A stretch of 32,000 nucleotides of DNA, taken from NCBI RefSeq assembly GCF_900232105.1, contig NZ_LT934425.1, forward strand, positions 1,410,001 through 1,442,000, in the 5' to 3' direction. Positions 294-27,079 of the stretch are shown piece by piece (position 1 is the stretch's first letter; each line of letters starts with the position of its first letter). Source of the DNA: Candidatus Kuenenia stuttgartensis (lineage in GTDB: Bacteria; Planctomycetota; Brocadiia; Brocadiales; Brocadiaceae). The notes under the pieces are model-generated. The model made no database searches, was not told where the DNA came from, and saw only the letters and a program-made list of their open reading frames with translations. A program made the position numbers and the translations under genes.

Positions 294-827
294 TCATAAT
301 TCAATTTGATCTATCTCGATACATCCTTTGCCATAAAGGTAATTCCCTGCGCTCGAATAAACCCAATGTCCGGCATCTTCTACCAGCCCCCTTCTTACAG
401 GATTGCAATGTATATATGCAACCTTTTGTCTAAACACATCCTCCTGCGCAACCACCTGCGGGTGGAATCCTTCCTGCCATACCTGATATTCGCTGGTAGC
501 CTTGTGTCCTTTTTTATAAAATTCAAACTGTTTCAGAAGCCGCTTCCTCTGATTCTCTTTTGCTATCCGTATAATTTCCCGCGCAGTATAGCTCTTAAAA
601 TCTCTTATTATTCCAGACACCGCCTCTGACGAAACAAGAAGGTGTATATGGGTATCCATTACAACATAAGCAAACAATCGCAGCCCTTTTTTCTGTCTGC
701 AATAAGTTAACGAATTGACTATGATGTCGCAAAATATCTTTTCTGTAAATACCGGTAGCCACCCGACAATTGTAGAGGTTATAAAATACAGGTTGCTGTT
801 TTTTACTATTTTGTAACGTGATCTCAT
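294..827 (-). CDS. rayT: REP-associated tyrosine transposase (RAYT, IS200/IS605-like Y1 HUH transposase), copy 1
   Basis: 177-aa ORF. HUH motif in VVMDTHIHLLV and Tyr motif VAYIHCNPVRRGLV. Flanked by REP hairpins in inverted orientation. Confidence 0.85.
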   Translation of the reverse strand: MRSRYKIVKNSNLYFITSTIVGWLPVFTEKIFCDIIVNSLTYCRQKKGLRLFAYVVMDTHIHLLVSSEAVSGIIRDFKSYTAREIIRIAKENQRKRLLKQFEFYKKGHKATSEYQVWQEGFHPQVVAQEDVFRQKVAYIHCNPVRRGLVEDAGHWVYSSAGNYLYGKGCIEIDQIEL

Positions 828-931: not shown

Positions 932-1029
932 CAATCGGCAATCGGCAGTCAGAAGTCAGAGGTCTGAAGTCGGCAGTCGGCAGTCGGCAAATTACAGATT
1001 GAGGATTGCAGACTGGGGACTGGGAACAC
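932..1029. repeat. Phased heptanucleotide block of 14 consecutive 7-mers: CAATCGG x2, CAGTCAG, AAGTCAG, AGGTCTG, AAGTCGG, CAGTCGG x2, CAAATTA, CAGATTG, AGGATTG, CAGACTG, GGGACTG, GGAACAC
   Basis: Unbroken 7-bp register counted base by base. Confidence 0.85.
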
Positions 1030-1198: not shown

Positions 1199-1732
1199 TC
1201 ATAATTCAATTTGATCTATCTCGATACATCCTTTGCCATAAAGGTAATTCCCTGCGCTCGAATAAACCCAATGTCCGGCATCTTCTACCAGCCCCCTTCT
1301 TACAGGATTGCAATGTATATATGCAACCTTTTGTCTAAGCACATCCTCCTGCGCAACCATCTGCGGGTGGAATCCTTCCTGCCATACCTGATATTCGCTG
1401 GTCGCCTTGTGTCCTTTTTTGTAAAATTCAAACTGTTTCAGAAGCCGCTTCCTCTGATTCTCTTTTGCTATCCGTATAATTTCCCGCGCAGTATAGCTCT
1501 TAAAATCTCTTATTATTTCAGACGCCGCCTCTGACGAAACAAGGAGGTGTATATGGGTATCCATTACAACATAAGCAAACAATCGCAGCCCTTTTTTCTG
1601 TCTGCAATAAGTTAACGAATTGACTATGATGTCGCAAAATATCTTTTCTGTAAATACCGGTAGCCACCCGACAATTGTAGAGGTTATAAAATACAGGTTG
1701 CTGTTTTTTACTATTTTGTAACGTGACCTCAT
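1199..1732 (-). CDS. rayT: REP-associated tyrosine transposase (RAYT), copy 2
   Basis: 177 aa; differs from copy 1 at 4 residues (AVSG/AASE, QVV/QMV, DVF/DVL); same HUH and Tyr motifs. Confidence 0.85.
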   Translation of the reverse strand: MRSRYKIVKNSNLYFITSTIVGWLPVFTEKIFCDIIVNSLTYCRQKKGLRLFAYVVMDTHIHLLVSSEAASEIIRDFKSYTAREIIRIAKENQRKRLLKQFEFYKKGHKATSEYQVWQEGFHPQMVAQEDVLRQKVAYIHCNPVRRGLVEDAGHWVYSSAGNYLYGKGCIEIDQIEL

Positions 1733-2497: not shown

Positions 2498-2980
2498 TTA
2501 CAGCAGGTTGAATTTCTTCAGGATGCCGGCGACTTTTTCATCGGTCTTGCTGAGGGTTCTGAATGCATCTATGAGGGTATGCAGTTTGTTACGGTTTGTT
2601 GCTATGTCGTCCTCTATCTTCTTAACCTTGTCTTCAAAGGGACGTATCATGGTGCGCCTGTCCCACAGGGCAAACCATATTGTGCCGCCACACAACGTCG
2701 CAAATGCGCCAAAGATGCCCAGCATTATATGGACCAACCGGTCAAATTGTTTATCTATGCGGTCAAATTGTTTATCTATACGGCCAAACTGGATATTTAT
2801 GTCTTCCCGGAGTTGTTTTACTTCTCCGCGAAAAGCAGACTGCCCTTCTTCAAGCCGTGTAAGCCTTTCCACTATCTCCCGGTCGCTGATGTGGGGTGCT
2901 GCCTCTATGGCAAATGTTTGGCTATTACAGGCAATAAGAGCGGACGCTATGAATAGAATAATAATGGATAAATTCTTCAT
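2498..2980 (-). CDS. Paralog P1 of a signal-peptide / coiled-coil / TM protein with 3 QFxRxDx heptads; no family recognised
   Basis: The ORF track gives 2498..3016 from a TTG. I prefer the ATG at 2980, which gives MKNLSIIILFIASALIAC (signal peptide, LIAC lipobox), one TM helix IMLGIFGAFATLCGGTIWFALW and a 55-aa tail. Confidence 0.7.
   Translation of the reverse strand: MKNLSIIILFIASALIACNSQTFAIEAAPHISDREIVERLTRLEEGQSAFRGEVKQLREDINIQFGRIDKQFDRIDKQFDRLVHIMLGIFGAFATLCGGTIWFALWDRRTMIRPFEDKVKKIEDDIATNRNKLHTLIDAFRTLSKTDEKVAGILKKFNLL
2739..2801 (-). repeat. In-frame 21-bp tandem repeat x3 inside P1 (CGGTCAAATTGTTTATCTATG type)
   Basis: Counted directly; encodes the QFDRIDK units. Confidence 0.85.
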
Positions 2981-2987
2981 AAACAGC

Positions 2988-3016
2988 AGCTTAAATTTGA
3001 CATGCGGTTTTGTCAA
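2988..3016 (-). promoter_or_regulatory. Candidate sigma70-type promoter of P1: TTGACA, 17 bp, TAAGCT, then ATG 7 nt downstream (possible leaderless mRNA)
   Basis: Perfect -35 hexamer, 17-bp spacer, -10 with T1/A2/T6. No Shine-Dalgarno before the ATG. Conserved in all four copies. Confidence 0.35.
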
Positions 3017-3031
3017 GGAAATTAGTCATTG

Positions 3032-3087
3032 GTCAGAAGTCGGAAGTCGGCAAATTGCAGATTGCCGATTGAGGACTGCGGACCGAT
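3032..3087. repeat. Heptanucleotide tract upstream of P1: 3 variable units (GTCAGAA, GTCGGAA, GTCGGCA) plus a constant 5-unit tail AATTGCA GATTGCC GATTGAG GACTGCG GACCGAT
   Basis: Counted base by base. Confidence 0.85.
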
Positions 3088-3217
3088 TTTATAATCTGTT
3101 CCTGCCCCATAAAATCCTTTTTTTATTTCATCTGTGAAATCTGTGGTTTCCGTTTTTCAATCTGTGGAATCTGTTAAATCTGTGGTTTCTCTTTTGAAAG
3201 TCGGGAACCGGTAGTTT

Positions 3218-3721
3218 TTACAGCAGGTTGAATTTCTTCAGGATGCCGGCGACTTTTTCATCGGTCTTGCTGAGGGTTCTGAATGCATCTATGAGGGTGT
3301 GCAGCTTGTTGCGGTTTGCCGCGATGTCGTCCTCTATCTTCTTAACCTTGTCTTCAAAGGGGCGTATCATGGTGCGCCTGTCCCACAGGGCAAACCATAT
3401 CGTGCCGCCACACAACGCCGCAAATGCGCCAAAGATGCCAAGCATTATATGGACCAACCGGTCAAATTGTTTATCTATGCGGTCAAATTGAGCATCTATC
3501 CTGCCAAACTGGGTATCTACACGGTCAAACTGTTTATTCATGTTCTCGCGGAGTTGTTTTACTTCTTCGCGAAAAGCAGACTGCCCTTCTTCAAGCCGTG
3601 TTAGCCTTTCCACGATTTCCCGGTCGCTGATGTGGGGTGCGGCTTCTATTGCAAATGCCTGGCTATTACAGGCAATAAGAGCGGACGCTATGAATAGCAT
3701 AATAATGGGCAAATTCTTCAT
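3218..3721 (-). CDS. Paralog P2, 4 heptads
   Basis: The ORF track gives 3218..3757; ATG at 3721; same architecture as P1. Confidence 0.7.
   Translation of the reverse strand: MKNLPIIMLFIASALIACNSQAFAIEAAPHISDREIVERLTRLEEGQSAFREEVKQLRENMNKQFDRVDTQFGRIDAQFDRIDKQFDRLVHIMLGIFGAFAALCGGTIWFALWDRRTMIRPFEDKVKKIEDDIAANRNKLHTLIDAFRTLSKTDEKVAGILKKFNLL
3459..3542 (-). repeat. In-frame 21-bp tandem repeat x4 inside P2
   Basis: Counted directly. Confidence 0.85.
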
Positions 3722-3728
3722 AAACAGC

Positions 3729-3757
3729 AGCTTAAATTTGACATGCGGTTTTGTCAA
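3729..3757 (-). promoter_or_regulatory. Candidate TTGACA-17-TAAGCT promoter of P2
   Basis: Identical to the P1 site. Confidence 0.35.
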
Positions 3758-3772
3758 GGAAATTAGTCATTG

Positions 3773-3877
3773 GTCAGAAATCAGAAGTCAGAAGTCAGAA
3801 GTCAGAAGTCAGAAGTCGGAAGTCGGAAGTCGGAAGTCGGCAAATTGCAGATTGCCGATTGAGGACTGCGGACTGAT
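3773..3877. repeat. Heptanucleotide tract upstream of P2: 10 variable units (GTCAGAA, ATCAGAA, GTCAGAA x4, GTCGGAA x3, GTCGGCA) plus the constant 5-unit tail
   Basis: Counted base by base. Confidence 0.85.
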
Positions 3878-3968
3878 TTTATAATCTGTGCCTGCCCCAT
3901 AAAATCCTTTTTTTATTTCATCTGTGAAATCTGTGGTTTCTCTTTTGAAAGTCGGGAACCGGTAGTTT

Positions 3969-4514
3969 TTACAGCAGGTTGAATTTCTTCAGGATGCCGG
4001 CGACTTTTTCATCGGTCTTGCTGAGGGTTCTGAATGCATCTATGAGGGTATGCAGCTTGTTGCGGTTTGCCGCGATGTCGTCCTCTATCTTCTTAACCTT
4101 GTCTTCAAAGGGGCGTATCATGGTGCGCCTGTCCCACAGGGCAAACCATATTGTGCCGCCGCACAACGCCGCAAATGCGCCAAAGATGCCAAGCATTATA
4201 TGGACCAGCCGGTCAAATTGTTTGTCTATTCTGTCAAACTGAGCATCTATCCTGCCAAACTGGGTATCCATCCTGCCAAACTGAGTATCTACCCGATCAA
4301 ACTGTTTATTCATGTCCTCACGGAGTTGTCTTATTACATCCGCATTTGCCCTGATTTCTGCCCGTAGTGCGTTTTGCCCTTCTTCGAGCCGTGTAAGCCT
4401 TTCCACAATTTCCCGGTCGCTGATGTGCGGTGCGGCATCTATGGCAAATGTTTGGCTATTACAGGCAATAAGAGCGGACGCTATTAATAGAATAATAATG
4501 GATAAATTCTTCAT
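3969..4514 (-). CDS. Paralog P3, 5 heptads plus one extra upstream heptad (EIRANAD)
   Basis: The ORF track gives 3969..4550; ATG at 4514. Confidence 0.7.
   Translation of the reverse strand: MKNLSIIILLIASALIACNSQTFAIDAAPHISDREIVERLTRLEEGQNALRAEIRANADVIRQLREDMNKQFDRVDTQFGRMDTQFGRIDAQFDRIDKQFDRLVHIMLGIFGAFAALCGGTIWFALWDRRTMIRPFEDKVKKIEDDIAANRNKLHTLIDAFRTLSKTDEKVAGILKKFNLL
4210..4314 (-). repeat. In-frame 21-bp tandem repeat x5 inside P3
   Basis: Counted directly. Confidence 0.85.
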
Positions 4515-4521
4515 AAGCAGC

Positions 4522-4550
4522 AGCTTAAATTTGACATGCAGTTTTGTCAA
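4522..4550 (-). promoter_or_regulatory. Candidate TTGACA-17-TAAGCT promoter of P3
   Basis: Same hexamers and spacing. Confidence 0.35.
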
Positions 4551-4565
4551 GAAAATTAGTCCTTG

Positions 4566-4635
4566 GTCAGAAATCAGAAGTCAGAAGTCAGAAGTCGGCA
4601 AATTGCAGATTGCCGATTGAGGACTGCGGACCGAT
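4566..4635. repeat. Heptanucleotide tract upstream of P3: 5 variable units (GTCAGAA, ATCAGAA, GTCAGAA x2, GTCGGCA) plus the constant tail
   Basis: Counted base by base. Confidence 0.85.
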
Positions 4636-4726
4636 TTTATAATCTGTGCCTGCCCCATAAAATCCTTTTTTTATTTCATCTGTGAAATCTGTGGTTTCTC
4701 TTTTGAAAGTCGGGAACCGGTAGTTT

Positions 4727-5188
4727 TTACAGCAGGTTGAATTTCTTCAGGATGCCGGCGACTTTTTCATCGGTCTTGCTGAGGGTTCTGAATGCATCTA
4801 TGAAGGTATGCAGCTTGTTGCGGTTTGCCGCGATGTCGTCCTCTATCTTCTTAACCTTGTCTTCAAAGGGGCGTATCATGGTACGCCTGTCCCACAGGGC
4901 AAACCATATCGTGCCGCCACACAACGCCGCAAATGCGCCAAAGATACCCAGCATTATATGGACCAGCCGGTCAAATTGTTTGTCTATACGGTCAAACTGT
5001 TTATTCATGTCTTCCCGGAGTTGTTTTACTTCTTCGCGAAAAGCAGACTGCCCTTCTTCGAGCCGTGTAAGCCTTTCCACGATTTCCCGGTCGCTGATGT
5101 GCGGCGCGGTCTCTATGGCAAATGTTTGGCTATTACAGACAATAAGAGCGGACGCTATGAATAGAATAATAATGGATAAATTCTTCAT
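4727..5188 (-). CDS. Paralog P4, 2 heptads; the signal peptide ends LIVC (non-canonical lipobox)
   Basis: The ORF track gives 4727..5224; ATG at 5188. Confidence 0.7.
   Translation of the reverse strand: MKNLSIIILFIASALIVCNSQTFAIETAPHISDREIVERLTRLEEGQSAFREEVKQLREDMNKQFDRIDKQFDRLVHIMLGIFGAFAALCGGTIWFALWDRRTMIRPFEDKVKKIEDDIAANRNKLHTFIDAFRTLSKTDEKVAGILKKFNLL
4968..5009 (-). repeat. In-frame 21-bp tandem repeat x2 inside P4
   Basis: Counted directly. Confidence 0.85.
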
Positions 5189-5195
5189 AAACAGC

Positions 5196-5224
5196 AGCTT
5201 AAATTTGACCTGCAGTTTTGTCAA
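5196..5224 (-). promoter_or_regulatory. Candidate TTGACA-17-TAAGCT promoter of P4; it has no GTCAGAA tract upstream, only ATTAGTC x2
   Basis: Same hexamers and spacing. Confidence 0.3.
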
Positions 5225-5350
5225 GAAAATTAGTCATTAGTCATGCATAGCAAGATTTGCCTGTGATAATGACGGGCCAGCGAAGGACGAGGGACGAAGG
5301 AAGAGGGATATCTTTCGTCTGTAGCATCCTGGCTATACCAGCTTAGGATT

Positions 5351-5734: not shown

Positions 5735-5830
5735 CCGGCAAATTGCAGATTGGGGACTGGAGACTGGAGACTGGAGATCAGTAATTTCTTTGTATTTTTT
5801 GGCAAAATATTTAATGCTGAAATCCGAAAT
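5735..5830. repeat. Heptamer block (CCGGCAA ATTGCAG ATTGGGG ACTGGAG x3) followed by the G-repeat GTAATTTCTTTGTATTTTTTGGCAAAATATTTAATGCTGAAATCCGA
   Basis: Paralogous to the two flanks of tRNA-Val (6581..6651 and 6745..6795), with no tRNA between them. Confidence 0.75.
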
Positions 5831-5982: not shown

Positions 5983-6261
5983 TTATTGATGAGCTGTTAT
6001 GGCTATGATGGTAATCTGTTTTTTGTCAGGGCCATAGCACCAAAATATTCTATATGCTGCCGGTGTGGATTGTTCAGCATAAGCCTCAAAAACCTTTTCT
6101 CCTTTCGGCCCTTTCAATGTGGTAAACTCATGGGTTTGCAAGCCCGGATGCCTTGGATTTTGAGACAGAAACTGAATGGCCTTTTTTACCGCCGTGTATC
6201 TCTTGAAAAGTCCCTTGTCGGTTTTGAGTTTGTCGAGGTCGGTTAAGAATATTTCAAACAA
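5983..6261 (-). CDS. Type II toxin, RelE/ParE superfamily
   Basis: 92 aa; C-terminal AYRIFWCYGPDKKQITIIAITAH pattern typical of the fold; lies 9 bp downstream of a small partner ORF. Confidence 0.7.
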   Translation of the reverse strand: MFEIFLTDLDKLKTDKGLFKRYTAVKKAIQFLSQNPRHPGLQTHEFTTLKGPKGEKVFEAYAEQSTPAAYRIFWCYGPDKKQITIIAITAHQ

Positions 6262-6270
6262 GGGATTTTA

Positions 6271-6570
6271 TTATAGGTCGTCAAGATTGAGTTTTGAGAT
6301 TTTTCCTTCCGATGCCTCTTTTAAACCTTTTTGGACGTCTTCAAAGGCTTCGCTATTTTGATAGAGCCATACCTCTGATGATGGAATATTCTTTAACACT
6401 TCTCCCAGCCTACGAAGCTCTTCAATGTCAATTATTGCAGCCACCTTGTGACCCTCACTATCGATGATGTATTGCCTGACTTTGATAAGACCGGTTTCCT
6501 GCTTTATGGTTGTAGTAATAATACATTCTCCTGACAAAAACGCATATAAACACAGGGGTTGGAGGGGCAC
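6271..6570 (-). CDS. Cognate antitoxin; start uncertain (GTG at 6570 or TTG at 6537)
   Basis: Small ORF immediately upstream of the toxin; charged C-terminal half (IDIEELRRLGE...KGLKEASEGK); family not assigned. Confidence 0.55.
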   Translation of the reverse strand: MPLQPLCLYAFLSGECIITTTIKQETGLIKVRQYIIDSEGHKVAAIIDIEELRRLGEVLKNIPSSEVWLYQNSEAFEDVQKGLKEASEGKISKLNLDDL

Positions 6571-6651: not shown

Positions 6652-6728
6652 TGGTGGGCGATATAGGACTCGAACCTATAACCCCTTGCTTGTAAGGCAA
6701 GTGCTCTAGCCGATTGAGCTAATCGCCC
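6652..6728 (-). tRNA. tRNA-Val, anticodon UAC, with CCA encoded
   Basis: Cloverleaf folded by hand: acceptor GGGCGAT/ATCGCCC, D stem GCTC/GAGC, anticodon stem CTTGC/GCAAG with loop CTTACAA, T arm ATAGG-TTCGAGT-CCTAT, discriminator A, CCA; 77 nt. Confidence 0.95.
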
Positions 6729-6796: not shown

Positions 6797-6992
6797 GTGA
6801 AATCCGAAACAAATTCTAATGACAAAATGATTTGAAATTCTAAACAAATGCATCTTTTGTATCTCGCATTTCGTGCTTCATAATTGTTGTATGTTTTGAA
6901 TTTTATGTTTTGTTATTCGGATTTGTTTCGTATTTCGTGTTTCGGATTTCGTATTTTTTATATCTTGCTTGTTTGGTTCCGGCTATTCCAGC
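6797..6992 (-). repeat. E-family heptamer-built palindromic element (E1), ending GCTTGTTTGGTTCCGGCT
   Basis: Inverted copy of 15500..15707; arms AAATCCGAAAC / GTTTCGGATTT. Confidence 0.75.
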
Positions 6993-19524: not shown

Positions 19525-21459
19525 TTATTTTTTACTCACCATTAATTCTTCTGCCACGGAGGGGAATTTTTCAATATTCGTGTGAGGAAGAAAGTTTGCC
19601 GATACATATTCTTCCATGTATTTATTGTTGCTCATCAGATCAATATAGGTCATTTTCGTACCGATTTCTTTTGCAACTTCGTGGGCCTCCGCGGAGAATA
19701 AGGTCATTTTCGCACCGATTATTGAAGTGTTACCGACAAAATGTACTTTTGCGATCTCAATATCAGGGAGCATGCCAATGGTAACGGCACTTTTCGCATC
19801 CAGATAGCTTCCGAACCCGCCGGCGAGGTACACCTGTTCGATACTTTCCACGTCCATTCCCATAGATTCCAGTAAGGTGGAAATCGCGGAATAAATAGCC
19901 GCTTTGGACCGGATAAGGTTCTGTATATCCGCCTGCGTAATAATGATGTCTTTCTTTTTTGCCGTTTCTTTCCTGTCTACAAGGAGAAATTCCTGTCCGT
20001 TATCCGTAGACCGTAATCTTTCCGTTTTTATCCCTTTTTGAAAATTCCCCGTCCGGTCAATGACGCCGCTTCTTACCAGATTTGCCAGGCATTCCAATAA
20101 CCCGGAGCCGCAAATTCCGGAGGGAGGGGCGTCACCGATTGTTTTGTACATTACGTCAAAGTCCGGTGTAATGGTTATTTTTTCAATGGCGCCTTTTGCT
20201 GCACGCATACCACAGGAAATTCCGCTGCCTTCAAAAGACGGGCCGGCGGACGCGGAACAGCATACAAGCCAGTCCTTGTTTCCCAGCACAATTTCACCAT
20301 TAGTGCCGATATCTATCAGCAGTGATAATGCCTCCGCCTTATCCAATCTTATGGATAAAACGCCGGCAGATATGTCTCCGCCGACATAAGCCCCAACGCA
20401 GGGCAGCGTGTAAAGCAGGCCATGACTGTTAATCCTGACGTCGATTTCACTTGCCCTTATTGGCGCAATAATATTGACAACAGGAAGATACGGTTCCTTT
20501 CTTATATTAGTCGGGTCAAGGCCCATGAGAAAATGAGTCATTACCGTATTGCCTGCGCAAACGACGGCATTGACATTGTGGATATTCAGGGTATTCCTTT
20601 TCACCAGCGTGGATATGAGGTGGTTAACATCCTCTGTCAGCATTTCGTGCATCATTTCCATCGCATTATTTTGGGCAGCATACATAATTCTCTGGATGTA
20701 ATCGTCACCGTACTTGATCTGTGAATTATAGGTGGCTTCGGCGTCAATGGTTTCCGTTGTGGACAAATTAATCAGATGTGCTACTACTGTTGTTGTTCCA
20801 ATGTCAACAGCTATCCCATAATTGTTTGCGCTTACGTCACCCGGCTGCACCTCGATTATTTCAAATAATGGGCATCTGTTTGCCAGGGTTACTGTTATCT
20901 TCCAGTCGCTGCTTCTTAGCAGCGCCGGCAATTGCTTTAAAACAGCGAGGTGTATGGATAATTTTTCCGCAGAAATAGTTGTTTCCGAGGAAATGCCCTG
21001 GCAGAGCCTTTCATAATCCGCCATGTTGTCGTCCATGGTTGGACGCGGCAATTCAAGATATATCTTATTTATCAACGGGGCATGTTTAAACTGTTCTACT
21101 CCCGGATTAATGGCCGCCTGAGAACCGGAAAACAGCATATTATCCCCTACCAGTATCCGGCTCTTGTCCAGCCGTGACTCTTCGGGAATAAATACTTCAA
21201 GGTTATCATCTATTAATGTTTTGCATGCAAGCACATATCCTTTTTCTGCTTCTTCTACAGAAATATGGGAGGAAGGCCGCCTTTGTGTTTTCCCGGACTG
21301 AAGAATTACCTTACATTTGCCGCAGGTGCCATCCCCTCCGCACAAGGCATTAATAAAGAGATCGCCTTTGTATGAGGCATCAAGCACCGTCTTTCCCGGT
21401 TCTATTTCAACAGTTATATCATTAGGGAGAAAATGTATTGTATAGTGTGAATCTTCCAT
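19525..21459 (-). CDS. Reductive activator of the corrinoid Fe-S protein (RACo / orf7-type): N-terminal 2Fe-2S ferredoxin plus an ASKHA ATPase domain
   Basis: CGGDGTCGKC ferredoxin motif; ATG start at MEDSHYTIHF (the ORF track extends to a TTG at 21486). Confidence 0.85.
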   Translation of the reverse strand: MEDSHYTIHFLPNDITVEIEPGKTVLDASYKGDLFINALCGGDGTCGKCKVILQSGKTQRRPSSHISVEEAEKGYVLACKTLIDDNLEVFIPEESRLDKSRILVGDNMLFSGSQAAINPGVEQFKHAPLINKIYLELPRPTMDDNMADYERLCQGISSETTISAEKLSIHLAVLKQLPALLRSSDWKITVTLANRCPLFEIIEVQPGDVSANNYGIAVDIGTTTVVAHLINLSTTETIDAEATYNSQIKYGDDYIQRIMYAAQNNAMEMMHEMLTEDVNHLISTLVKRNTLNIHNVNAVVCAGNTVMTHFLMGLDPTNIRKEPYLPVVNIIAPIRASEIDVRINSHGLLYTLPCVGAYVGGDISAGVLSIRLDKAEALSLLIDIGTNGEIVLGNKDWLVCCSASAGPSFEGSGISCGMRAAKGAIEKITITPDFDVMYKTIGDAPPSGICGSGLLECLANLVRSGVIDRTGNFQKGIKTERLRSTDNGQEFLLVDRKETAKKKDIIITQADIQNLIRSKAAIYSAISTLLESMGMDVESIEQVYLAGGFGSYLDAKSAVTIGMLPDIEIAKVHFVGNTSIIGAKMTLFSAEAHEVAKEIGTKMTYIDLMSNNKYMEEYVSANFLPHTNIEKFPSVAEELMVSKK

Positions 21460-21555
21460 GCTATTTCCACGGCTTTTTATAGCCAAAAGTATATGATTTT
21501 CTAAAAAATTTAGTACGGTATATTGATACTGAACATCTTGGATGAACGATTTACG

Positions 21556-21698
21556 ATTTTAGATTTTTTTGATCTGTGTAATCGTTCGACTGAGCTCACG
21601 ACGAAGTCAGTGAAATATGTGGTTTCCTTTTTTTATTAATTTATGATTTACAATTTGGAATTTTAAAGCGTAAATCGAACCTCGAACCTCTAATTATG
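21556..21698 (+). repeat. F-family repeat (F2)
   Basis: Homologous to 9945..10078. Confidence 0.8.
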
Positions 21699-23030
21699 CC
21701 ACTCGGTCTTCAGGTAAGAGGGTATTCCTGAGGCTTCTCTAGGTCCTACAAGTATTTCCCACCCAAGGGTTTCCTGCAATTTTCCAGACATTGCAGCAAC
21801 AAGCCCGGGAATAATCAACTTCTTGTGTTTCACCTTAGAGGCCACCTGTGCAGCCTCCATGGCCTTTGCTACCGTTTTATCATTTAACTTGTCGCCCGAA
21901 TAAGCGGTCAGCACCGAAGTGCCTCCCGTATCAACGGACAGTATGTATGCGGGAACACGACTCGCCTCAACCTCTCCTAATACGGTATAATAAGTAAGAG
22001 AGAAATTGGTAGTGAAGATAACCGGTGAATCTTCTTTCACATCGCCTATACCATACAGCTTTGGTTCGACCTGTATTGGCTTTTGCGGGTCGGTATATAA
22101 ATTTGTTCTGACGGTAAGCAACGGCATAATGCCCCATGGTTCACAATGATCCACCACCACAATGCCAGCGTATTTCGCCACATATGTTGCGGCTAACGAA
22201 ATTTCCATGAACGGGTCTTCTTCTGAAACAAGCGTAATGGCGGGGTATCCGATGGCACGAAAGTTTTTCTTAAGGGCTGCGCGTCTTATTTTTGTTAATT
22301 TTTGCAATACATCCCTGGGATTATCACCGCTCACATCAAGGACAATCTCTTCCACGCCTGCTTTTTTTGCGCATTCGGCAAGGTCTGCAAGCTCTTCAAG
22401 AGTAGGGGCGGTCACCGTCATCGGGCATTTATTTTCTACCGCTAATGCCGCCATCGATGCACAATTTTGCGCATTTGCTCCATGCAGCAAGGGTCTTTTC
22501 TCCGCGCAATTTGCGAGTGCAGATTTCATATTATCTACGGAGGTGCTGCTTAATATAATACAATGGTGGGAACCTTCGCTTATTTTTTTTGCCGCATCGG
22601 CAAATTTTTCCGGCGTATTGCTTTTATTAATGAGTGTTATCAGATCAATTTCGATCTCAGTGCCAACCCTTGAAACCTTCATATTGTTAATTTTTTTCAG
22701 GCGTTCGTCGAATGCTTCATTGCTCAAATCGTCACAAATAGTAATCCCTATGCCGGTGGGATGATAAAATTTTTCATCATGCCGGAATAGGACGTTTTCT
22801 TCGCCTACCTGCACCTTTTTGCCGTTTGCTCCAATGGTTACCAGTTTTATCGGGGGAGCCGAAGCGGCGCCTAACGTATTTTTAGCCTCTTCACTTACGT
22901 CAGGGCAATCCGAGAGATTTGCCTTCTTTTGCGCCAGTTGCATGGCAAAGGCAAGGCACGTAGGCCTCCCACATTTTTTGCAATTTGTTTTTGGAAGCAG
23001 CTTATAAATATCCAGTCCGGTTAAAGCCAT
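21690..23030 (-). CDS. acsC: Corrinoid iron-sulfur protein large subunit AcsC (CdhE-like)
   Basis: 446 aa; N-terminal CKKCGRPTCLAF 4Fe-4S motif. Confidence 0.9.
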   Translation of the reverse strand: MALTGLDIYKLLPKTNCKKCGRPTCLAFAMQLAQKKANLSDCPDVSEEAKNTLGAASAPPIKLVTIGANGKKVQVGEENVLFRHDEKFYHPTGIGITICDDLSNEAFDERLKKINNMKVSRVGTEIEIDLITLINKSNTPEKFADAAKKISEGSHHCIILSSTSVDNMKSALANCAEKRPLLHGANAQNCASMAALAVENKCPMTVTAPTLEELADLAECAKKAGVEEIVLDVSGDNPRDVLQKLTKIRRAALKKNFRAIGYPAITLVSEEDPFMEISLAATYVAKYAGIVVVDHCEPWGIMPLLTVRTNLYTDPQKPIQVEPKLYGIGDVKEDSPVIFTTNFSLTYYTVLGEVEASRVPAYILSVDTGGTSVLTAYSGDKLNDKTVAKAMEAAQVASKVKHKKLIIPGLVAAMSGKLQETLGWEILVGPREASGIPSYLKTEWHN

Positions 23031-23165
23031 TCGTCAACATCCTTTCGATAAAGAAGTTAGCAATTTTTTTTATATAAAAAAAATACCCCTTTGCCATTAT
23101 GTAATATATAAGGAAAAGGGGTAAATATTCTATACATGATTATTTAAAATATCAAGTAATTATCC

Positions 23166-23256
23166 GTAACTATTCAGCGTAATCTATTAAACTACCGAAG
23201 CACAACTCGTTCTCAAACCTTGTACTGAACATAGTGAAGTATCTGTTTGGGAACGT
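23166..23256. repeat. D-family half element: GTAACTATTCAGCGTAA tail plus one 46-bp arm (23209..23254)
   Basis: Matches 13919..13964 and the tail at 14152..14170. The partner tail TTACGCTGAATAGTTAC is at 23694..23710, on the other side of MITE B. Confidence 0.7.
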
Positions 23257-23280
23257 AATGGCGATGGAAACTACATTCGC

Positions 23281-23674
23281 GGGTTCAGGTTACAAACCAA
23301 TGTCATTAAGTTAAGAATTATTGTAACACTTTGGTTTAAAAAAAAAACGTATTACCGATAAGCTCCGTAGGAGCAACCTGTTTATAGTAGATAGGATACC
23401 ATAACAGATATTAGTTCCGTCAGGAGCGGCCTGTCTTCCTGTCAATCATATACAGGCCGCTCCTACGGAGCTATTTACCTGTTGAATTTTATTGCGCTAC
23501 AAACAGACCGCCCCTAAAGGGGCTACATTGTTTTTTATATCCCCTTGGATTTTTCAAATAACTAAGGTATTAAGAATTATTTTATTAAAAACAACCCCCT
23601 TTTCCCCCTTTATTAAGGGGAACTTTTCTGGCAGGTTGCTTAACTTAATGACATTGGGTTACAAACCTGAACCC
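23281..23674 (-). mobile_element. MITE-like element copy B (394 bp), inverted relative to copy A and apparently inserted inside a D-family element
   Basis: Aligned by eye to the reverse complement of copy A; lacks the 16501..16527 hairpin. Confidence 0.75.
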
Positions 23675-23757
23675 GCCGGGAGTCGTGTAATGTTTACGCT
23701 GAATAGTTACAATTATCCTGCCTAAACAGACATAGCCGAAACGAAACAACTTCCAGA

Positions 23758-23817
23758 CTGCACCCCCCGCCAGCGGGGAACATTCTCCTCCCTTCTGGAG
23801 GAGGTAAGGTAGAGGAT
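23758..23817 (+). repeat. H-family repeat, 57 bp downstream of the clpP stop
   Basis: Homologous to 12247..12303. Confidence 0.7.
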
Positions 23818-23874
23818 TCGTACAAATATTTTGCCAAAAGATGCCATGAAATTACTGATTAAGGCACTCTATCT

Positions 23875-24501
23875 TTATACTTTTAAGTCATCGCTGGAGG
23901 ATATAATTTTATTGACCAAACCATACTGACAAGCTTCTTCGGCAGACATCCAAAAATTCCTCTTTGTGTCTGTCTCTACTTTCCCTATCGGTTGACCGGT
24001 TTCTACGGAAATCATACGATTCATTTTTTCCCTGCATTTCAGTATTTCGGTTGCCTCGATTTGAAGATCCGATGCAGTTCCATGAATACCGGTGGAAGGT
24101 TGATGGATAAGTATGCGCGAACTTGGCAAACTATACCGATCCTCTTTTTTTGCTCCTAAAAGAATAATGACCGCCGCACTGGCAACTACCCCCGAGCAAA
24201 TAGCCTTAATTTTCGGTTTAACAAAACGCAGCATGTCGTACATCGCAAAACCCGCGTCGGCATCTCCGCCCGGAGAATTAATGAATACCCTGATATCTTC
24301 GTCATTATCCGCCTCGAGGAGTAATAGTTGCGTTATGACCCTCTCTGCCATTTTTTTATTTACTTCATCCGTAACAATAATCGTGCGTGTCTTAAGCAAT
24401 CTTGCAATTAAATCTCCACCGCCACGTTTTTTTTCTTCTTTCTCTTCTTTCTCCTCTTCGCTATCACCCCTGGTGTTTAAAAATGGCATTTCAAAAATCA
24501 T
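23875..24501 (-). CDS. clpP: ClpP-family protease subunit, atypical: Ser and His conserved, Asn at the Asp position, charged insertion near the N-terminus
   Basis: INSPGG, VASAA (Ser), LIHQP (His); TDTKRNFWMSAEEA aligns to ERDTERDRFLSAPEA of E. coli ClpP; GGAG Shine-Dalgarno before the ATG at 24501. Confidence 0.85.
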   Translation of the reverse strand: MIFEMPFLNTRGDSEEEKEEKEEKKRGGGDLIARLLKTRTIIVTDEVNKKMAERVITQLLLLEADNDEDIRVFINSPGGDADAGFAMYDMLRFVKPKIKAICSGVVASAAVIILLGAKKEDRYSLPSSRILIHQPSTGIHGTASDLQIEATEILKCREKMNRMISVETGQPIGKVETDTKRNFWMSAEEACQYGLVNKIISSSDDLKV

Positions 24502-24586
24502 ACATTCACTCCACGATAAAATCCTGTAAAAAATAATTTAATTCCACTCTCTGTTGAATAATAAAATTGCTGTAAACTACATTCGC

Positions 24587-24681
24587 GGGTTCAGGCTTTA
24601 GGCGGTTTTTTTAATAAAACAGCGAGCCGCAGTGCATAGCCCCATTATTCAAATAAACGCATGGGTTGCAAACCTGAATCC
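24587..24681. mobile_element. MITE-like element copy C, a 95-bp internally deleted derivative that keeps both termini
   Basis: Left end plus the 13-bp flank AAACTACATTCGC are identical to copy B; right end GGGTTGCAAACCTGAATCC. Confidence 0.6.
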
Positions 24682-24743
24682 ACCTGGATATGCTTTAATA
24701 GGCTGGGTTTTAAAAAGACAAAGCCCAACGGCATTCATTTTCA

Positions 24744-24785
24744 CCCATCCCTAACCCTTCCCTGGAGGGGAATCAGACATGTCCC
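24744..24785 (-). repeat. H-family repeat, inverted copy upstream of clpP
   Basis: The reverse complement aligns to the GGGACAT..CCCCT..GGA..TTAGGG core of 12247..12303. Confidence 0.55.
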
Positions 24786-24866
24786 TATTGTGAGGGGCTA
24801 GGAACGGGTTTGTTAATTAGCAGTTTCCAGACGCATGTAATGCGTCTCTGCAAAGATGGGGGGTTC

Positions 24867-27050: not shown

Positions 27051-27079
27051 AGAACAACGCCCCTTTAATCCATTTTTTT

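What the first reader, a model, noticed from the sequence alone, without database searches (positions are those of the whole stretch)
2498..5224. Four tandem paralogs of a signal-peptide / coiled-coil / TM protein whose lengths differ only by whole heptads (165, 172, 179, 193 aa)
Seen: four co-directional ORFs with stops at 2498, 3218, 3969 and 4727 (unit period 720-758 bp). They share a near-identical signal sequence (MKNLSIIILFIASALIAC), TM helix (IMLGIFGAFAALCGGTIWFALW) and 55-aa C-terminal tail. They differ almost only in the number of 7-aa units QF(D/G)R(I/V/M)D(K/T/A) just N-terminal to the TM helix: 2 units in P4, 3 in P1, 4 in P2, and 5 plus one extra heptad (EIRANAD) in P3. Every length difference is a multiple of 7 aa, which preserves coiled-coil register. 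Inference: the proteins form an extracytoplasmic helical stalk of four discrete lengths (about 1 nm per heptad), anchored by the TM helix. An N-terminal lipid anchor is possible, since three copies have an LIAC lipobox. The fourth has LIVC, which is non-canonical, so SPase I cleavage after TFA is an alternative. A lipoprotein signal combined with a C-terminal TM helix is the layout of unimolecular spanins. Length-graded periplasmic coiled coils recall Lpp acting as a periplasm-width ruler, and repeat-variable membrane paralogs recall Borrelia Bdr. I recognise no family. This is a candidate envelope-spacing or length-variable tether system.
Basis: partly seen in the sequence, partly recalled or inferred. 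Interest (0 to 1): 0.85.

Follow-up and report, generated by a model that had tools for sequence, protein, structure and literature searches.

The report
Length-variable membrane coiled-coil paralog array
Four neighbouring genes of the anammox bacterium Kuenenia encode almost identical membrane proteins whose rod-like outer part differs only by whole 7-residue units. They belong to a widespread bacterial family that no curated library names; the pattern is real, but what it is for is unproven.

Summary
Four co-directional minus-strand genes (stops at 2498, 3218, 3969 and 4727) are 92-95% identical. They differ by 2, 3, 4 or 5 QF(D/G)R(I/V/M)D(K/T/A) heptads, plus one separate 7-residue indel.

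The window is Candidatus Kuenenia stuttgartiensis (kustd1521-1523, KSMBR1_1305-1308). A conserved TTGACA-N17-TAAGCT-N7-ATG footprint suggests leaderless mRNAs, giving true lengths of 153, 160, 167 and 181 aa.

The proteins are not anammox-specific. Their family has no Pfam or NCBIfam model and includes 717 clusters at E<=1e-10. It occurs in Brocadiia, Binatia, Nitrospirota, Nitrospinota, Desulfobacterota, Aquificaceae, Aminicenantes and Bacteroidota. The shared layout is a signal peptide, a capped tip, a variable coiled coil, a TM helix, an invariant FALWDRRTMIRPFE motif and a helical tail.

Whole-heptad steps follow from 21-bp DNA repeats. Other lineages step by 11 residues, so "multiples of 7" is not general.

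The lipobox Cys is not conserved, while the SPase I site is, and there is no phage link, so the spanin reading fails. Published proteomics places the proteins in the membrane fraction.

Paralogs are under purifying selection (dN/dS 0.10-0.21). Distinct lengths within arrays are no more frequent than chance, so the "graded ruler" idea remains open.

The parts
4727..5188 (-). Copy 4 (kustd1523 / KSMBR1_1308 type). 153 aa from ATG 5188, with 2 heptad units. The signal region has LIVC.
   Evidence: Locus-tag mapping comes from PMC7709395 supplement.
3969..4514 (-). Copy 3 (kustd1522 / KSMBR1_1307). 181 aa from ATG 4514, with 5 heptad units plus the extra heptad EIRANAD.
   Evidence: (P0001 is 100% identical).
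3218..3721 (-). Copy 2 (kustd1521 / KSMBR1_1306). 167 aa from ATG 3721, with 4 heptad units.
   Evidence: P0002; AlphaFold2 model of this copy.
2498..2980 (-). Copy 1 (KSMBR1_1305; not annotated in the 2006 KUST genome). 160 aa from ATG 2980, with 3 heptad units.
2739..2788 (-). 21-bp tandem DNA repeats that encode the heptads of copy 1.
   Evidence: period 21, 2.4 copies, 93% matches.
3459..3537 (-). 21-bp tandem DNA repeats that encode the heptads of copy 2.
   Evidence: period 21, 3.8 copies, 74% matches.
4225..4291 (-). 21-bp tandem DNA repeats that encode the heptads of copy 3.
   Evidence: period 21, 3.2 copies, 84% matches.
4958..4999 (-). The two heptad-coding 21-bp units of copy 4 (QFDRIDK, QFDRLVH).
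   Evidence: Read from the sequence and the alignment.
5196..5224 (-). Putative promoter of copy 4: TTGACA, 17 nt, TAAGCT, then 7 nt to the ATG. This implies a leaderless mRNA.
   Evidence: One search shows both hexamers conserved and the spacer variable across more than 10 Brocadiaceae loci. This is an inference; no transcription start has been mapped.
4522..4550 (-). Putative promoter of copy 3, with the same architecture.
3729..3757 (-). Putative promoter of copy 2, with the same architecture.
2988..3016 (-). Putative promoter of copy 1, with the same architecture.
3773..3838 (-). 7-bp DNA repeats (GACTTCY on the gene strand), 9.4 copies, just upstream of the copy 2 promoter. The same repeat is present at 2.7 copies at 3032-3050 (copy 1) and 4.4 copies at 4566-4596 (copy 3). 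Copy 4 instead has GACTAAT x2.3 at 5229-5244.
   Evidence: Their function is unknown.

Best explanation
The array encodes four paralogues of an unnamed, widespread family of small single-pass membrane proteins.

Shown:
- Each gene is intact and under purifying selection.
- The products have an N-terminal Sec signal, a conserved tip (APHISDREIVERLTRLEEGQ), a variable block of 7-residue repeats, a Gly/Ala-rich TM helix in the same register, the near-invariant motif FALWDRRTMIRPFE, and a 45-residue helical tail.
- The proteins are made and they sediment with membranes.
- Length changes come from gain or loss of 21-bp units (33-bp units in other phyla).

Inferred:
- Each gene has its own sigma-70-type promoter and a leaderless mRNA.
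- The signal peptide is cut by signal peptidase I after xFA. This leaves an N-out, C-in protein that is essentially one long helix.
- The chains self-associate into a parallel coiled-coil bundle that crosses the membrane. With Phe at position a and Ile/Val at d, the bundle is probably trimeric or larger.
- The external rods would measure about 6.7, 7.7, 8.7 and 10.8 nm. The cytoplasmic rod would measure about 6 nm.
- The conserved tip, TM face, juxtamembrane motif and tail carry the function. The repeats act only as a spacer, and only 7- or 11-residue steps keep the tip in phase with the TM helix.

Most likely role (the weakest step, about 0.3): a structural envelope strut or scaffold in diderm bacteria. 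It would hold its tip at a set height above the cytoplasmic membrane and couple to a conserved cytoplasmic partner. The different lengths of the four copies are best read as a tolerated by-product of repeat slippage and unequal recombination, not as a proven graded set.
For: Anatomy:
- Searches give the layout.
- AlphaFold2 gives mean pLDDT 83.8, a signal helix at 4-20 and one helix over 33-153.
- periodicity is 3.55 in the ectodomain and 3.45 in the tail.

Selection and age:
- dN/dS 0.10-0.21 at dS 0.17-0.28.

Family:
- 910 and 862 relatives.
- 717 clusters at 50% identity with E<=1e-10, all of the listed ones 80-265 aa.
- found in eight or more diderm phyla, including cultured Desulfacinum infernum DSM 9756.
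- P121, F122, E123, T107 and I108 are conserved.

Signal processing:
- Ala at -1 in 229 of 248 sequences; Cys in 98 of about 260.
- W, R or Y replaces the Cys in relatives at least 75% identical.

Repeats:
- 21-bp units.
- tip-to-WDRR distances are 60, 67, 74, 81, 88, 95 and 102, plus series offset by 11 residues. 165 of 168 unique sequences fit 60+7a+11b.
- tandem arrays with different repeat numbers recur in Binatia (five copies with 0-4 units of 11 aa), Nitrospirota, Bacteroidota-type contigs and others.

Expression and location:
- PMC11897245 Table S1: the group KsCSTR_09890/09900/09910 is 90.3% in the membrane fraction. KsCSTR_09920 is 64% membrane.
- In the same table kustd1521 carries the value 44 in the de Almeida 2016 membrane-abundance column (porin 1, S-layer protein 3, HzsA 38) and an RPKM of 739.

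Context:
- linked to the S-layer gene in three Brocadiaceae lineages.
- sits inside the rplK-rplA-X-rplJ-rpoB cluster in Aquificaceae.
- promoter footprint.
Against: - No oligomer was modelled or measured. The AlphaFold2 model is a monomer with pTM 0.35.
- No partner, ligand or phenotype is known.
- No neighbouring gene is conserved across phyla, so the function is inferred from anatomy alone.
- SignalP 6.0, as quoted in PMC11897245, predicts lipoprotein signals for three of the four copies. That would change the picture of the N-terminus. The same table also labels the hydroxylamine dehydrogenase HOX (to my knowledge a soluble enzyme) as LIPO.
- An earlier proteome of 1,189 proteins did not detect any copy.
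- Whether the stalk faces the periplasm or the anammoxosome lumen in Kuenenia cannot be told from sequence.
- Long-term retention of four copies with different lengths would also fit a length-specific function.
Confidence: 0.55

Rival explanations
1. The graded ruler set is adaptive. The paralogues are kept because they differ in length, giving the cell rods of several fixed heights. These could be struts or tethers that set or sense periplasmic spacing, possibly tied to the S-layer or outer envelope in Kuenenia.
For: - All four copies are kept under purifying selection at dS of about 0.2.
- Lengths are identical in strains KUST, MBR1 and CSTR1.
- In 16 of 17 arrays from other loci, all lengths are distinct. 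One Binatia array has exactly 0, 1, 2, 3 and 4 units.
- The gene is linked to the S-layer gene in three Brocadiaceae lineages.
- The family is confined to diderm phyla.
Against: - Two random family members share a length only about 10% of the time (my arithmetic on the counts). All-distinct arrays are therefore expected by chance.
- One array has two copies of equal length (L122).
- Many genomes carry a single copy.
- Array composition differs between related strains (L161: 153 and 167; L162: 153, 167 and 160).
- A stalk of 7-11 nm anchored in the inner membrane cannot reach an S-layer that lies outside the outer membrane.
Confidence: 0.2
2. One reading: lipoprotein plus C-terminal TM helix. 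The N-terminal Cys would be acylated and sorted to the outer membrane while the TM helix stays in the inner membrane. The coiled coil would then bridge the periplasm like a unimolecular spanin or an Lpp-type tether.
For: - Copies 1-3 have a canonical L-I-A-C lipobox.
- SignalP 6.0 calls them LIPO in PMC11897245 Table S1.
- There is a weak PHROG match to an Rz-like spanin (E 3.6e-4, no stretch passing).
Against: - Copy 4 has LIVC and is called SP.
- Close relatives have W, R or Y in place of Cys, and most others have L or F at -1.
- The SPase I site six residues downstream is 92% conserved.
- There are no relatives in 2.9 million viral contigs and no lysis genes nearby.
- The stalk is all-helical, unlike the u-spanin gp11 (my knowledge).
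- 7-11 nm is short for spanning the whole periplasm.
Confidence: 0.08
3. A hypervariable contingency locus. Repeat slippage would rapidly change protein length, and the 7-bp promoter-proximal repeats would change expression, to generate population diversity.
For: - Tandem 21-bp coding repeats are present, along with 7-bp repeats of variable copy number (0, 2.7, 4.4 and 9.4) directly upstream of each promoter.
- The neighbouring S-layer gene is highly variable between strains (PMC7709395).
Against: - Coding repeats are imperfect (74-93% matches).
- Lengths are unchanged between KUST, MBR1 and CSTR1.
- Both the coding repeats and the 7-bp repeats are identical in MAG L162.
- The protein is not expected to be surface-exposed.
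Confidence: 0.07
4. A SNARE-like or organelle-specific fusion or shaping protein of the anammoxosome. UniRef labels one copy 't-SNARE coiled-coil homology domain-containing'.
For: - The UniRef name appears.
- The coiled coil lies next to a TM helix.
- Kuenenia has an internal organelle.
Against: - A signal peptide places the coil outside the cytoplasm.
- The family occurs in Aquificaceae, Bacteroidota, Binatia and other groups without such organelles.
- No SNARE or Syntaxin Pfam hit reaches its cutoff.
- Coil length is variable.
Confidence: 0.03

Closest known systems
Borrelia Bdr (Borrelia direct repeat) paralogue family
   Same: Many near-identical paralogues per genome. They differ mainly in the copy number of a short central repeat. 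They have a C-terminal hydrophobic anchor in the inner membrane. Their function is unknown. (Characterisation of Bdr is from my own knowledge.)
   Different: Bdr proteins have no cleavable signal peptide and are plasmid-borne in one genus (my knowledge). Here there is a signal peptide, an extracytoplasmic repeat block, a conserved cytoplasmic tail and a distribution over eight or more phyla. No sequence relation appeared in any search.
Lpp (Braun's lipoprotein), the periplasmic-width ruler
   Same: A short parallel coiled-coil rod in the periplasm whose length in heptads has a physical meaning. Three Kuenenia copies have a lipobox-like LIAC.
   Different: Lpp is anchored in the outer membrane and linked to peptidoglycan by its C-terminal Lys (established knowledge). 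These proteins end in a TM helix plus a cytoplasmic tail. The Cys is not conserved. No Lpp family hit was found.
DUF1640 / CCDC90B / MCUR1 membrane proteins
   Same: A coiled-coil stalk runs directly into a single C-terminal-side TM helix, in a prokaryote-wide family described by the Lupas laboratory (PMC4786415). Locus L038 carries two DUF1640-like-topology proteins that use the same KRFEQVD heptads and also differ in repeat number.
   Different: DUF1640 proteins have no signal peptide, so their topology is opposite, and they have an N-terminal head domain. PF07798 does not match the window proteins. The only hit is a 'weak' precomputed one on a 76-aa fragment in L161.
Unimolecular spanin (phage T1 gp11) and the i-spanin Rz
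   Same: A lipobox-like signal plus a C-terminal TM helix in three copies. There is a weak PHROG hit to an Rz-like spanin.
   Different: These are not phage genes and have no lysis cassette. There are no viral relatives. The Cys is not conserved. The stalk is helical.
SNARE proteins
   Same: A heptad coiled coil lies immediately before a TM helix. UniRef gives a 't-SNARE coiled-coil homology' label.
   Different: Signal peptide, extracytoplasmic coil, variable length and a long C-terminal tail after the TM helix. Pfam SNARE and Syntaxin models stay below their cutoffs.

Membership tests
Unnamed family defined here (FALWDRRTMIRPFE family) | N-terminal signal peptide with Ala at -1, followed by a conserved tip ([ST]-D-R-E-I-[IV]-E or FTQEDRDRLIR) | tested here: met
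   All four window copies have xFA|IE followed by APHISDREIVERL.
Unnamed family defined here (FALWDRRTMIRPFE family) | A variable block of 7- or 11-residue repeats running in register into one TM helix | tested here: met
Unnamed family defined here (FALWDRRTMIRPFE family) | The juxtamembrane motif F-A-L-W-D-R-R-T-M-I-R-P-F-E and a helical tail of about 45 residues ending in hydrophobic-L-L | tested here: met
   Hits to the HMM built from A2 reach E values down to 1e-101 for the window copies.
Unimolecular spanin (T1 gp11 type) | A functional outer-membrane lipoprotein signal (lipobox Cys) | tested here: inconclusive
   LIAC in copies 1-3 and LIVC in copy 4. SignalP 6.0 gives LIPO for three copies and SP for one. 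The Cys is present in only 38% of relatives and is replaced by W, R or Y in close ones.
Unimolecular spanin (T1 gp11 type) | Encoded in a phage lysis cassette with a holin and an endolysin | tested here: not met
   The neighbours are TrkAH, a tRNA-Val, a toxin-antitoxin-like pair and IS200-like ORFs. No relatives were found in viral contigs.
Unimolecular spanin (T1 gp11 type) | A C-terminal TM domain | tested here: met
   A TM helix is present at residues 92-113 of copy 2. It is followed by a 54-residue tail, which spanins lack (my knowledge).
Lpp / Braun lipoprotein | A C-terminal Lys cross-linked to peptidoglycan, no TM helix, and a match to the LPP family model | tested here: not met
   The C-terminus is a TM helix plus a cytoplasmic tail ending in FNLL. 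No LPP model appears among the Pfam or NCBIfam hits up to E=10.
SNARE (t-SNARE coiled-coil homology) | A cytosolic SNARE motif on a tail-anchored protein without a signal peptide, with Pfam SNARE or Syntaxin above its cutoff | tested here: not met
   A signal peptide is present. No SNARE or Syntaxin hit was found for the window copies. For a Desulfacinum relative, Syntaxin scored 23.1 bits against a cutoff of 26.7.
DUF1640 / CCDC90-like (PF07798) | A match to PF07798, an N-terminal head domain and no signal peptide | tested here: not met
   PF07798 is absent from the hit lists up to E=10. A signal peptide is present.
Haemolysin XhlA (PF10779) | A match above the Pfam gathering score | tested here: not met
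   Best score 14.6 bits against a cutoff of 34.7, with E 0.037-0.13.
Borrelia Bdr | Sequence relation to Bdr proteins and the absence of a signal peptide | tested here: not met
   No Borrelia family appears among the Pfam, NCBIfam or PDB hits. A signal peptide is present. Which Pfam model represents Bdr was not verified.
Parallel coiled-coil oligomer (generic) | Self-association into a bundle of defined stoichiometry | not testable with these tools
   Only monomer prediction was available. The heptad pattern has F at a and I/V at d, and the periodicity is 3.55.

The most novel reading that the evidence does not exclude
Diderm bacteria from several phyla keep sets of otherwise identical inner-membrane coiled-coil rods. 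The lengths of these rods are quantised in 7- or 11-residue steps and are selected to differ. In Kuenenia the rods would be 6.7-10.8 nm, the protein is abundant in the membrane, and the array is genetically linked to the S-layer gene. Such a set would be a multi-length ruler or strut system that sets or reads distances within the cell envelope. This would be a new class of envelope-architecture protein.
Probability: 0.18. Interest if true: 0.8.

Novelty: new variant of a known kind. Interest (0 to 1): 0.55.

Why it matters
If the structural reading holds, this is a large bacterial membrane-protein family that no curated library has named. It has 717 clusters at 50% identity with E<=1e-10, occurs in eight or more phyla, and appears to rank among the more abundant membrane proteins of an industrially important anammox bacterium. 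Its only variable feature is the length of a coiled-coil rod. That makes it a natural test case for how far helical spacers matter in the bacterial envelope, a question so far studied mainly with Lpp. The same arrays also offer natural length series in 7- and 11-residue steps, useful for coiled-coil engineering. If the length differences are neutral, the finding is still useful as a clean example of repeat-driven length drift constrained by helical register.

Tried and rejected
- Pfam, NCBIfam, PHROGs and PADLOC scans gave only sub-threshold coiled-coil noise: DUF16, DUF948, XhlA, ssr2422, Rz-like spanin and LmuB. The TM-plus-tail segment alone gave zero Pfam hits.
- A profile search of PDB sequences returned only generic trimeric coiled coils (coronavirus S2 HR1, influenza HA2) at E>=1.5e-4.
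- A Foldseek search of the AlphaFold2 model against the PDB gave no match. This is expected for a single long helix.
- A search for a conserved neighbouring gene across 77 genome loci found none. The second-largest 'cluster' was the antisense shadow ORF of the family gene itself.
- A viral-contig scan found no relatives.
- A full-text search for the repeat and motif strings, and for kustd1521-1523 or KSMBR1_1305-1307, found no paper. The genes appear only in supplementary tables.
- De Almeida et al. 2016 could not be read.
- I considered whether all-distinct lengths within arrays show selection. I rejected this as evidence because the chance of two random members sharing a length is only about 0.10.
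- I considered an uncleaved signal anchor that would give a two-TM hairpin. I rejected it because Ala at -1 and the residues after the cut are strongly conserved, and because the model shows one unbroken helix through EEGQ.

Full report
**Observation.** The window carries four co-directional ORFs on the minus strand: 2498-3016, 3218-3757, 3969-4550 and 4727-5224 (172, 179, 193 and 165 aa from TTG). They are 92-95% identical. The signal region, TM helix and tail are the same in all four. The only length differences are 2, 3, 4 or 5 copies of QF(D/G)R(I/V/M)D(K/T/A) next to the TM helix, plus a separate 7-residue insertion (EIRANAD) in the copy ending at 3969. At the DNA level the units are 21-bp tandem repeats with 74-93% matches. 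The whole gene-plus-spacer unit of 720-758 bp is duplicated. The long plus-strand ORFs over the same DNA are antisense shadows.

**Gene starts and promoters.** Homology between the 5'-most unit and the other three begins only about 50 bp upstream of the ATG of MKNL. In more than ten Brocadiaceae loci, TTGACA and TAAGCT are conserved. The 17 nt between them and the 7 nt before the ATG vary. This is the footprint of a sigma-70-type promoter whose transcript would start at the ATG. It is an inference; no 5' end has been mapped. The listed TTG start is the TTG of TTGACA. The likely products are therefore 160, 167, 181 and 153 aa. The step sizes are unchanged.

**Organism and annotation.** The best hits are Candidatus Kuenenia stuttgartiensis. 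The copies correspond as follows:

| Window copy (stop) | CSTR1 tag | MBR1 tag | KUST tag |
|---|---|---|---|
| 4727 | KsCSTR_09890 | KSMBR1_1308 | kustd1523 |
| 3969 | KsCSTR_09900 | KSMBR1_1307 | kustd1522 |
| 3218 | KsCSTR_09910 | KSMBR1_1306 | kustd1521 |
| 2498 | KsCSTR_09920 | KSMBR1_1305 | none (found only in the six-frame translation) |

They are annotated only as hypothetical or exported proteins. One UniRef entry carries an automatic 't-SNARE coiled-coil homology' label.

**Protein anatomy.**
- AlphaFold2, run with an 89-sequence alignment, gives mean pLDDT 83.8. It predicts a signal helix at 4-20, a low-confidence cleavage region at 25-27, one unbroken helix over 33-153, and a short terminal helix.
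- Hydrophobic periodicity is 3.55 residues in the ectodomain and 3.45 in the tail.
- In the repeats, F occupies position a and I/V/M occupies d. The same a/d phase continues through LVHIMLGIFGAFAALCGGTIWFALW.
- Basic residues follow the TM helix (DRRTMIRPFEDKVKK), which favours an N-out, C-in orientation.
- Taking the helix from residue 33 and a rise of 0.148 nm per residue (textbook value), the external rods would measure about 6.7, 7.7, 8.7 and 10.8 nm. That is about 1 nm per heptad.

**Lipobox or signal peptidase I.** Copies 1-3 have LIAC and copy 4 has LIVC. PMC11897245 Table S1 lists SignalP 6.0 calls of LIPO for three copies and SP for one. The same table also calls the hydroxylamine dehydrogenase HOX LIPO; to my knowledge HOX is a soluble enzyme. 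Across the family the Cys is present in only 98 of about 260 sequences. Most of those have L or F at -1, and relatives 75-87% identical carry W, R or Y instead. In contrast, Ala at -1 of the downstream xFA|(I/V)E site is present in 229 of 248 sequences, and E at +2 in 255. Signal peptidase I cleavage is therefore the family rule. Acylation of three Kuenenia copies is not excluded, but it cannot be essential.

**Family.**
- Neither Pfam nor NCBIfam has a model for it. The TM-plus-tail segment alone hits nothing.
- The family is not anammox-specific. A scan of one genome per GTDB species found it in Brocadiia (Kuenenia, Scalindua), Binatia, Nitrospirota, Nitrospinota, Desulfobacterota (including cultured Desulfacinum infernum DSM 9756), Aquificaceae, Aminicenantes and Bacteroidota.
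- A profile search of 1.84 billion representatives found 717 clusters at E<=1e-10. All of the 150 listed are 80-265 aa.
- All members share a signal peptide, a short conserved tip, repeats, a TM helix, FALWDRRTMIRPFE and a tail ending in L-L.
- No relatives occur in viral contigs. PHROGs and PADLOC gave only noise.

**Repeats and register.**
- In other lineages the unit is KRFEQVD (7 aa), or QLREDMNRQNQ and QLRAEMQGQLQ (11 aa).
- The distance from the tip motif to WDRR takes the values 60, 67, 74, 81, 88, 95 and 102, plus series offset by one, two or three hendecads. 165 of 168 unique sequences fit 60+7a+11b.
- 'Multiples of 7' is therefore not general, but '7 or 11' is. This is what a continuous coiled coil tolerates.
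- Most of the pattern is mutational: 21- and 33-bp units can only add whole repeats.
- The EIRANAD indel lies outside the repeats, and the longer form is the common one in Binatia and Nitrospirota. This is the one piece of evidence that points to a register constraint beyond mutation.

**Arrays elsewhere.** Tandem, near-identical paralogues with different repeat numbers recur.
- A Binatia contig has five copies with 3, 2, 4, 1 and 0 hendecads (L017).
- Scalindua rubra has four copies of 158, 165, 176 and 197 aa.
- Nitrospirota and several hot-spring and Bacteroidota-type contigs have pairs or triplets.

In 16 of 17 measurable arrays all lengths differ. However, two random family members share a length only about 10% of the time (my arithmetic on the counts). 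This gives no significant evidence that distinct lengths are selected.

**Selection, stability and expression.**
- Pairwise dS among the four copies is 0.17-0.28, with dN/dS of 0.10-0.21. All four are old enough and constrained enough to be working genes.
- Lengths are the same in strains KUST, MBR1 and CSTR1. A further MAG has identical coding and 7-bp repeat numbers for the three copies it contains (L162). More distant Kuenenia contigs have different sets: 153 and 167 in L161, and two copies in L159. The repeats are not hypermutable.
- A 1,189-protein proteome did not detect the proteins (PMC7709395).
- A 1,698-protein fractionation study did detect them. The group KsCSTR_09890/09900/09910 is 90.3% in the 130,000 g membrane pellet and elutes in the early SEC fraction F2. 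KsCSTR_09920 is 64% in the membrane fraction (PMC11897245).
- The same table gives kustd1521 the value 44 in the column for membrane-protein abundance from de Almeida et al. 2016. On that scale the porin has 1, the S-layer protein 3 and HzsA 38, so the value looks like a rank. The table also gives an RPKM of 739. I could not read the original paper.

**Context.**
- In the window the array lies between a tRNA-Val (6652-6728) with a small toxin-antitoxin-like pair on one side, and two IS200/Y1-transposase-like ORFs with repeat arrays on the other.
- In strain CSTR1 the S-layer gene is five genes beyond the array (KsCSTR_09970 = kustd1514). It would lie just outside the window.
- Homologues of that protein lie 0.5-2.5 kb downstream of family paralogues in two other Brocadiaceae lineages, L158-160 and L079. 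They are 53% identical to a 1,576-aa protein that carries the published Kustd1514 glycopeptide.
- Across phyla no neighbour is conserved.
- In Aquificaceae the gene sits between rplA and rplJ in the rplK-rplA-X-rplJ-rpoB cluster. This points to constitutive expression there.

**Mechanism.** The best-supported picture is a Sec-exported, type I membrane protein that is essentially one helix. It self-associates into a parallel coiled-coil bundle crossing the membrane. Its conserved ends (tip cap, Gly/Ala TM face, WDRRTMIRPFE, tail) do the work, and the repeats act as a spacer. Shown: gene integrity, constraint, helical prediction, periodicity, membrane association, and the origin of the steps in DNA repeats. 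Inferred: the cleavage site, orientation, oligomerisation, and any role as an envelope strut or scaffold. The function itself is the weakest step. The tip resembles the x-[ST]-x-polar-[DE]-hydrophobic N-capping beta-layer motif described for trimeric coiled coils in PMC4786415. This is a lead only.

**Comparison with known systems.** The array works like other repeat-variable, membrane-anchored coiled-coil families: Borrelia Bdr, DUF1640/MCUR1, and Lpp as a ruler. It fails the defining features of each, and of spanins, SNAREs and XhlA (see the membership table). It is best filed as a new variant of a known kind.

**Verdict.** The structural reading is largely right. The lipoprotein/spanin layout and the strict 'multiples of 7' claim do not generalise. 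The envelope-ruler idea is open, at roughly one chance in five. Interest is moderate to high: this is an unnamed, widespread family that appears abundant in the Kuenenia membrane, and it has a clean, testable length polymorphism.

Noticed in passing
window 935-989, 1840-1908, 2359-2397, 2424-2456, 3773-3838, 4566-4596, 5747-5777, 6926-6956: Eight arrays of 7-bp tandem DNA repeats with TRF score >=40 lie in the first 7 kb. The units include TCGGCAG, TTTCGTA, GCTCATG, GTCAGAA and AGACTGG. There are none in the remaining 25 kb. They resemble the short tandem heptamer repeats of cyanobacteria (my knowledge). Those next to the paralogues abut the putative -35 box and differ in copy number between copies, but not between two strains.
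   Followed up: partly
window 294-827 and 1199-1732 (minus strand); repeats at 18-68, 59-256, 1030-1079, 1065-1161 and 1949-1998: Two near-identical 177-aa ORFs match the IS200-like Y1 transposase model (Pfam Y1_Tnp, E 2e-7). Each is flanked by 26-bp and 16/17-bp tandem repeats. This looks like a REP-associated tyrosine transposase with its repeat arrays.
   Followed up: partly
window 2988-3016, 3729-3757, 4522-4550, 5196-5224: A TTGACA-N17-TAAGCT-N7-ATG footprint is conserved across Brocadiaceae while the spacer varies. It implies leaderless mRNAs, and it means the published 193-aa and 165-aa gene models start at the -35 box.
   Followed up: partly
just outside the window start; L158 2187-6950, L159 3357-6639, L079 8048-10501: The family paralogues are linked to the S-layer glycoprotein gene (kustd1514 homologues) in three Brocadiaceae lineages. 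The meaning is unknown. The linkage is not seen outside this group.
   Followed up: partly
L048, L049, L051, L056 (Aquificaceae): The family gene sits between the genes for ribosomal proteins L1 and L10, in the rplK-rplA-X-rplJ-rpoB cluster.
   Followed up: yes
L038 9867-10385 and 10665-11309: Two adjacent proteins of a different architecture (no signal peptide, a C-terminal TM helix) use the same KRFEQVD heptads. They also differ in repeat number, at 172 and 214 aa. Pfam gave only generic coiled-coil hits for one of them.
   Followed up: partly
window 5983-6261 and 6271-6570 (minus strand); 6652-6728: A small gene pair with a toxin-antitoxin look has no Pfam hit at E<=1e-5. It lies next to a tRNA-Val gene, between the array and trkH/trkA (TrkH is annotated in the syntenic loci L161 and L162).
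   Followed up: partly
window 19525-29041: A CO dehydrogenase/acetyl-CoA synthase cluster is present, with matches to RACo, CdhD, ACS beta and the Prismane/CODH family. This is ordinary for an anammox genome.
   Followed up: partly
protein cluster of copy 1: A 131-aa partial copy is deposited under Staphylococcus aureus (MZH08964.1). This is most likely contamination of that assembly.
   Followed up: no
L005 5965-6548 (Kuenenia sp. Bin_40): The orthologue is split by a frameshift inside the TM helix, giving ORFs of 144 and 65 aa. It is either a pseudogene or an assembly error.
   Followed up: no
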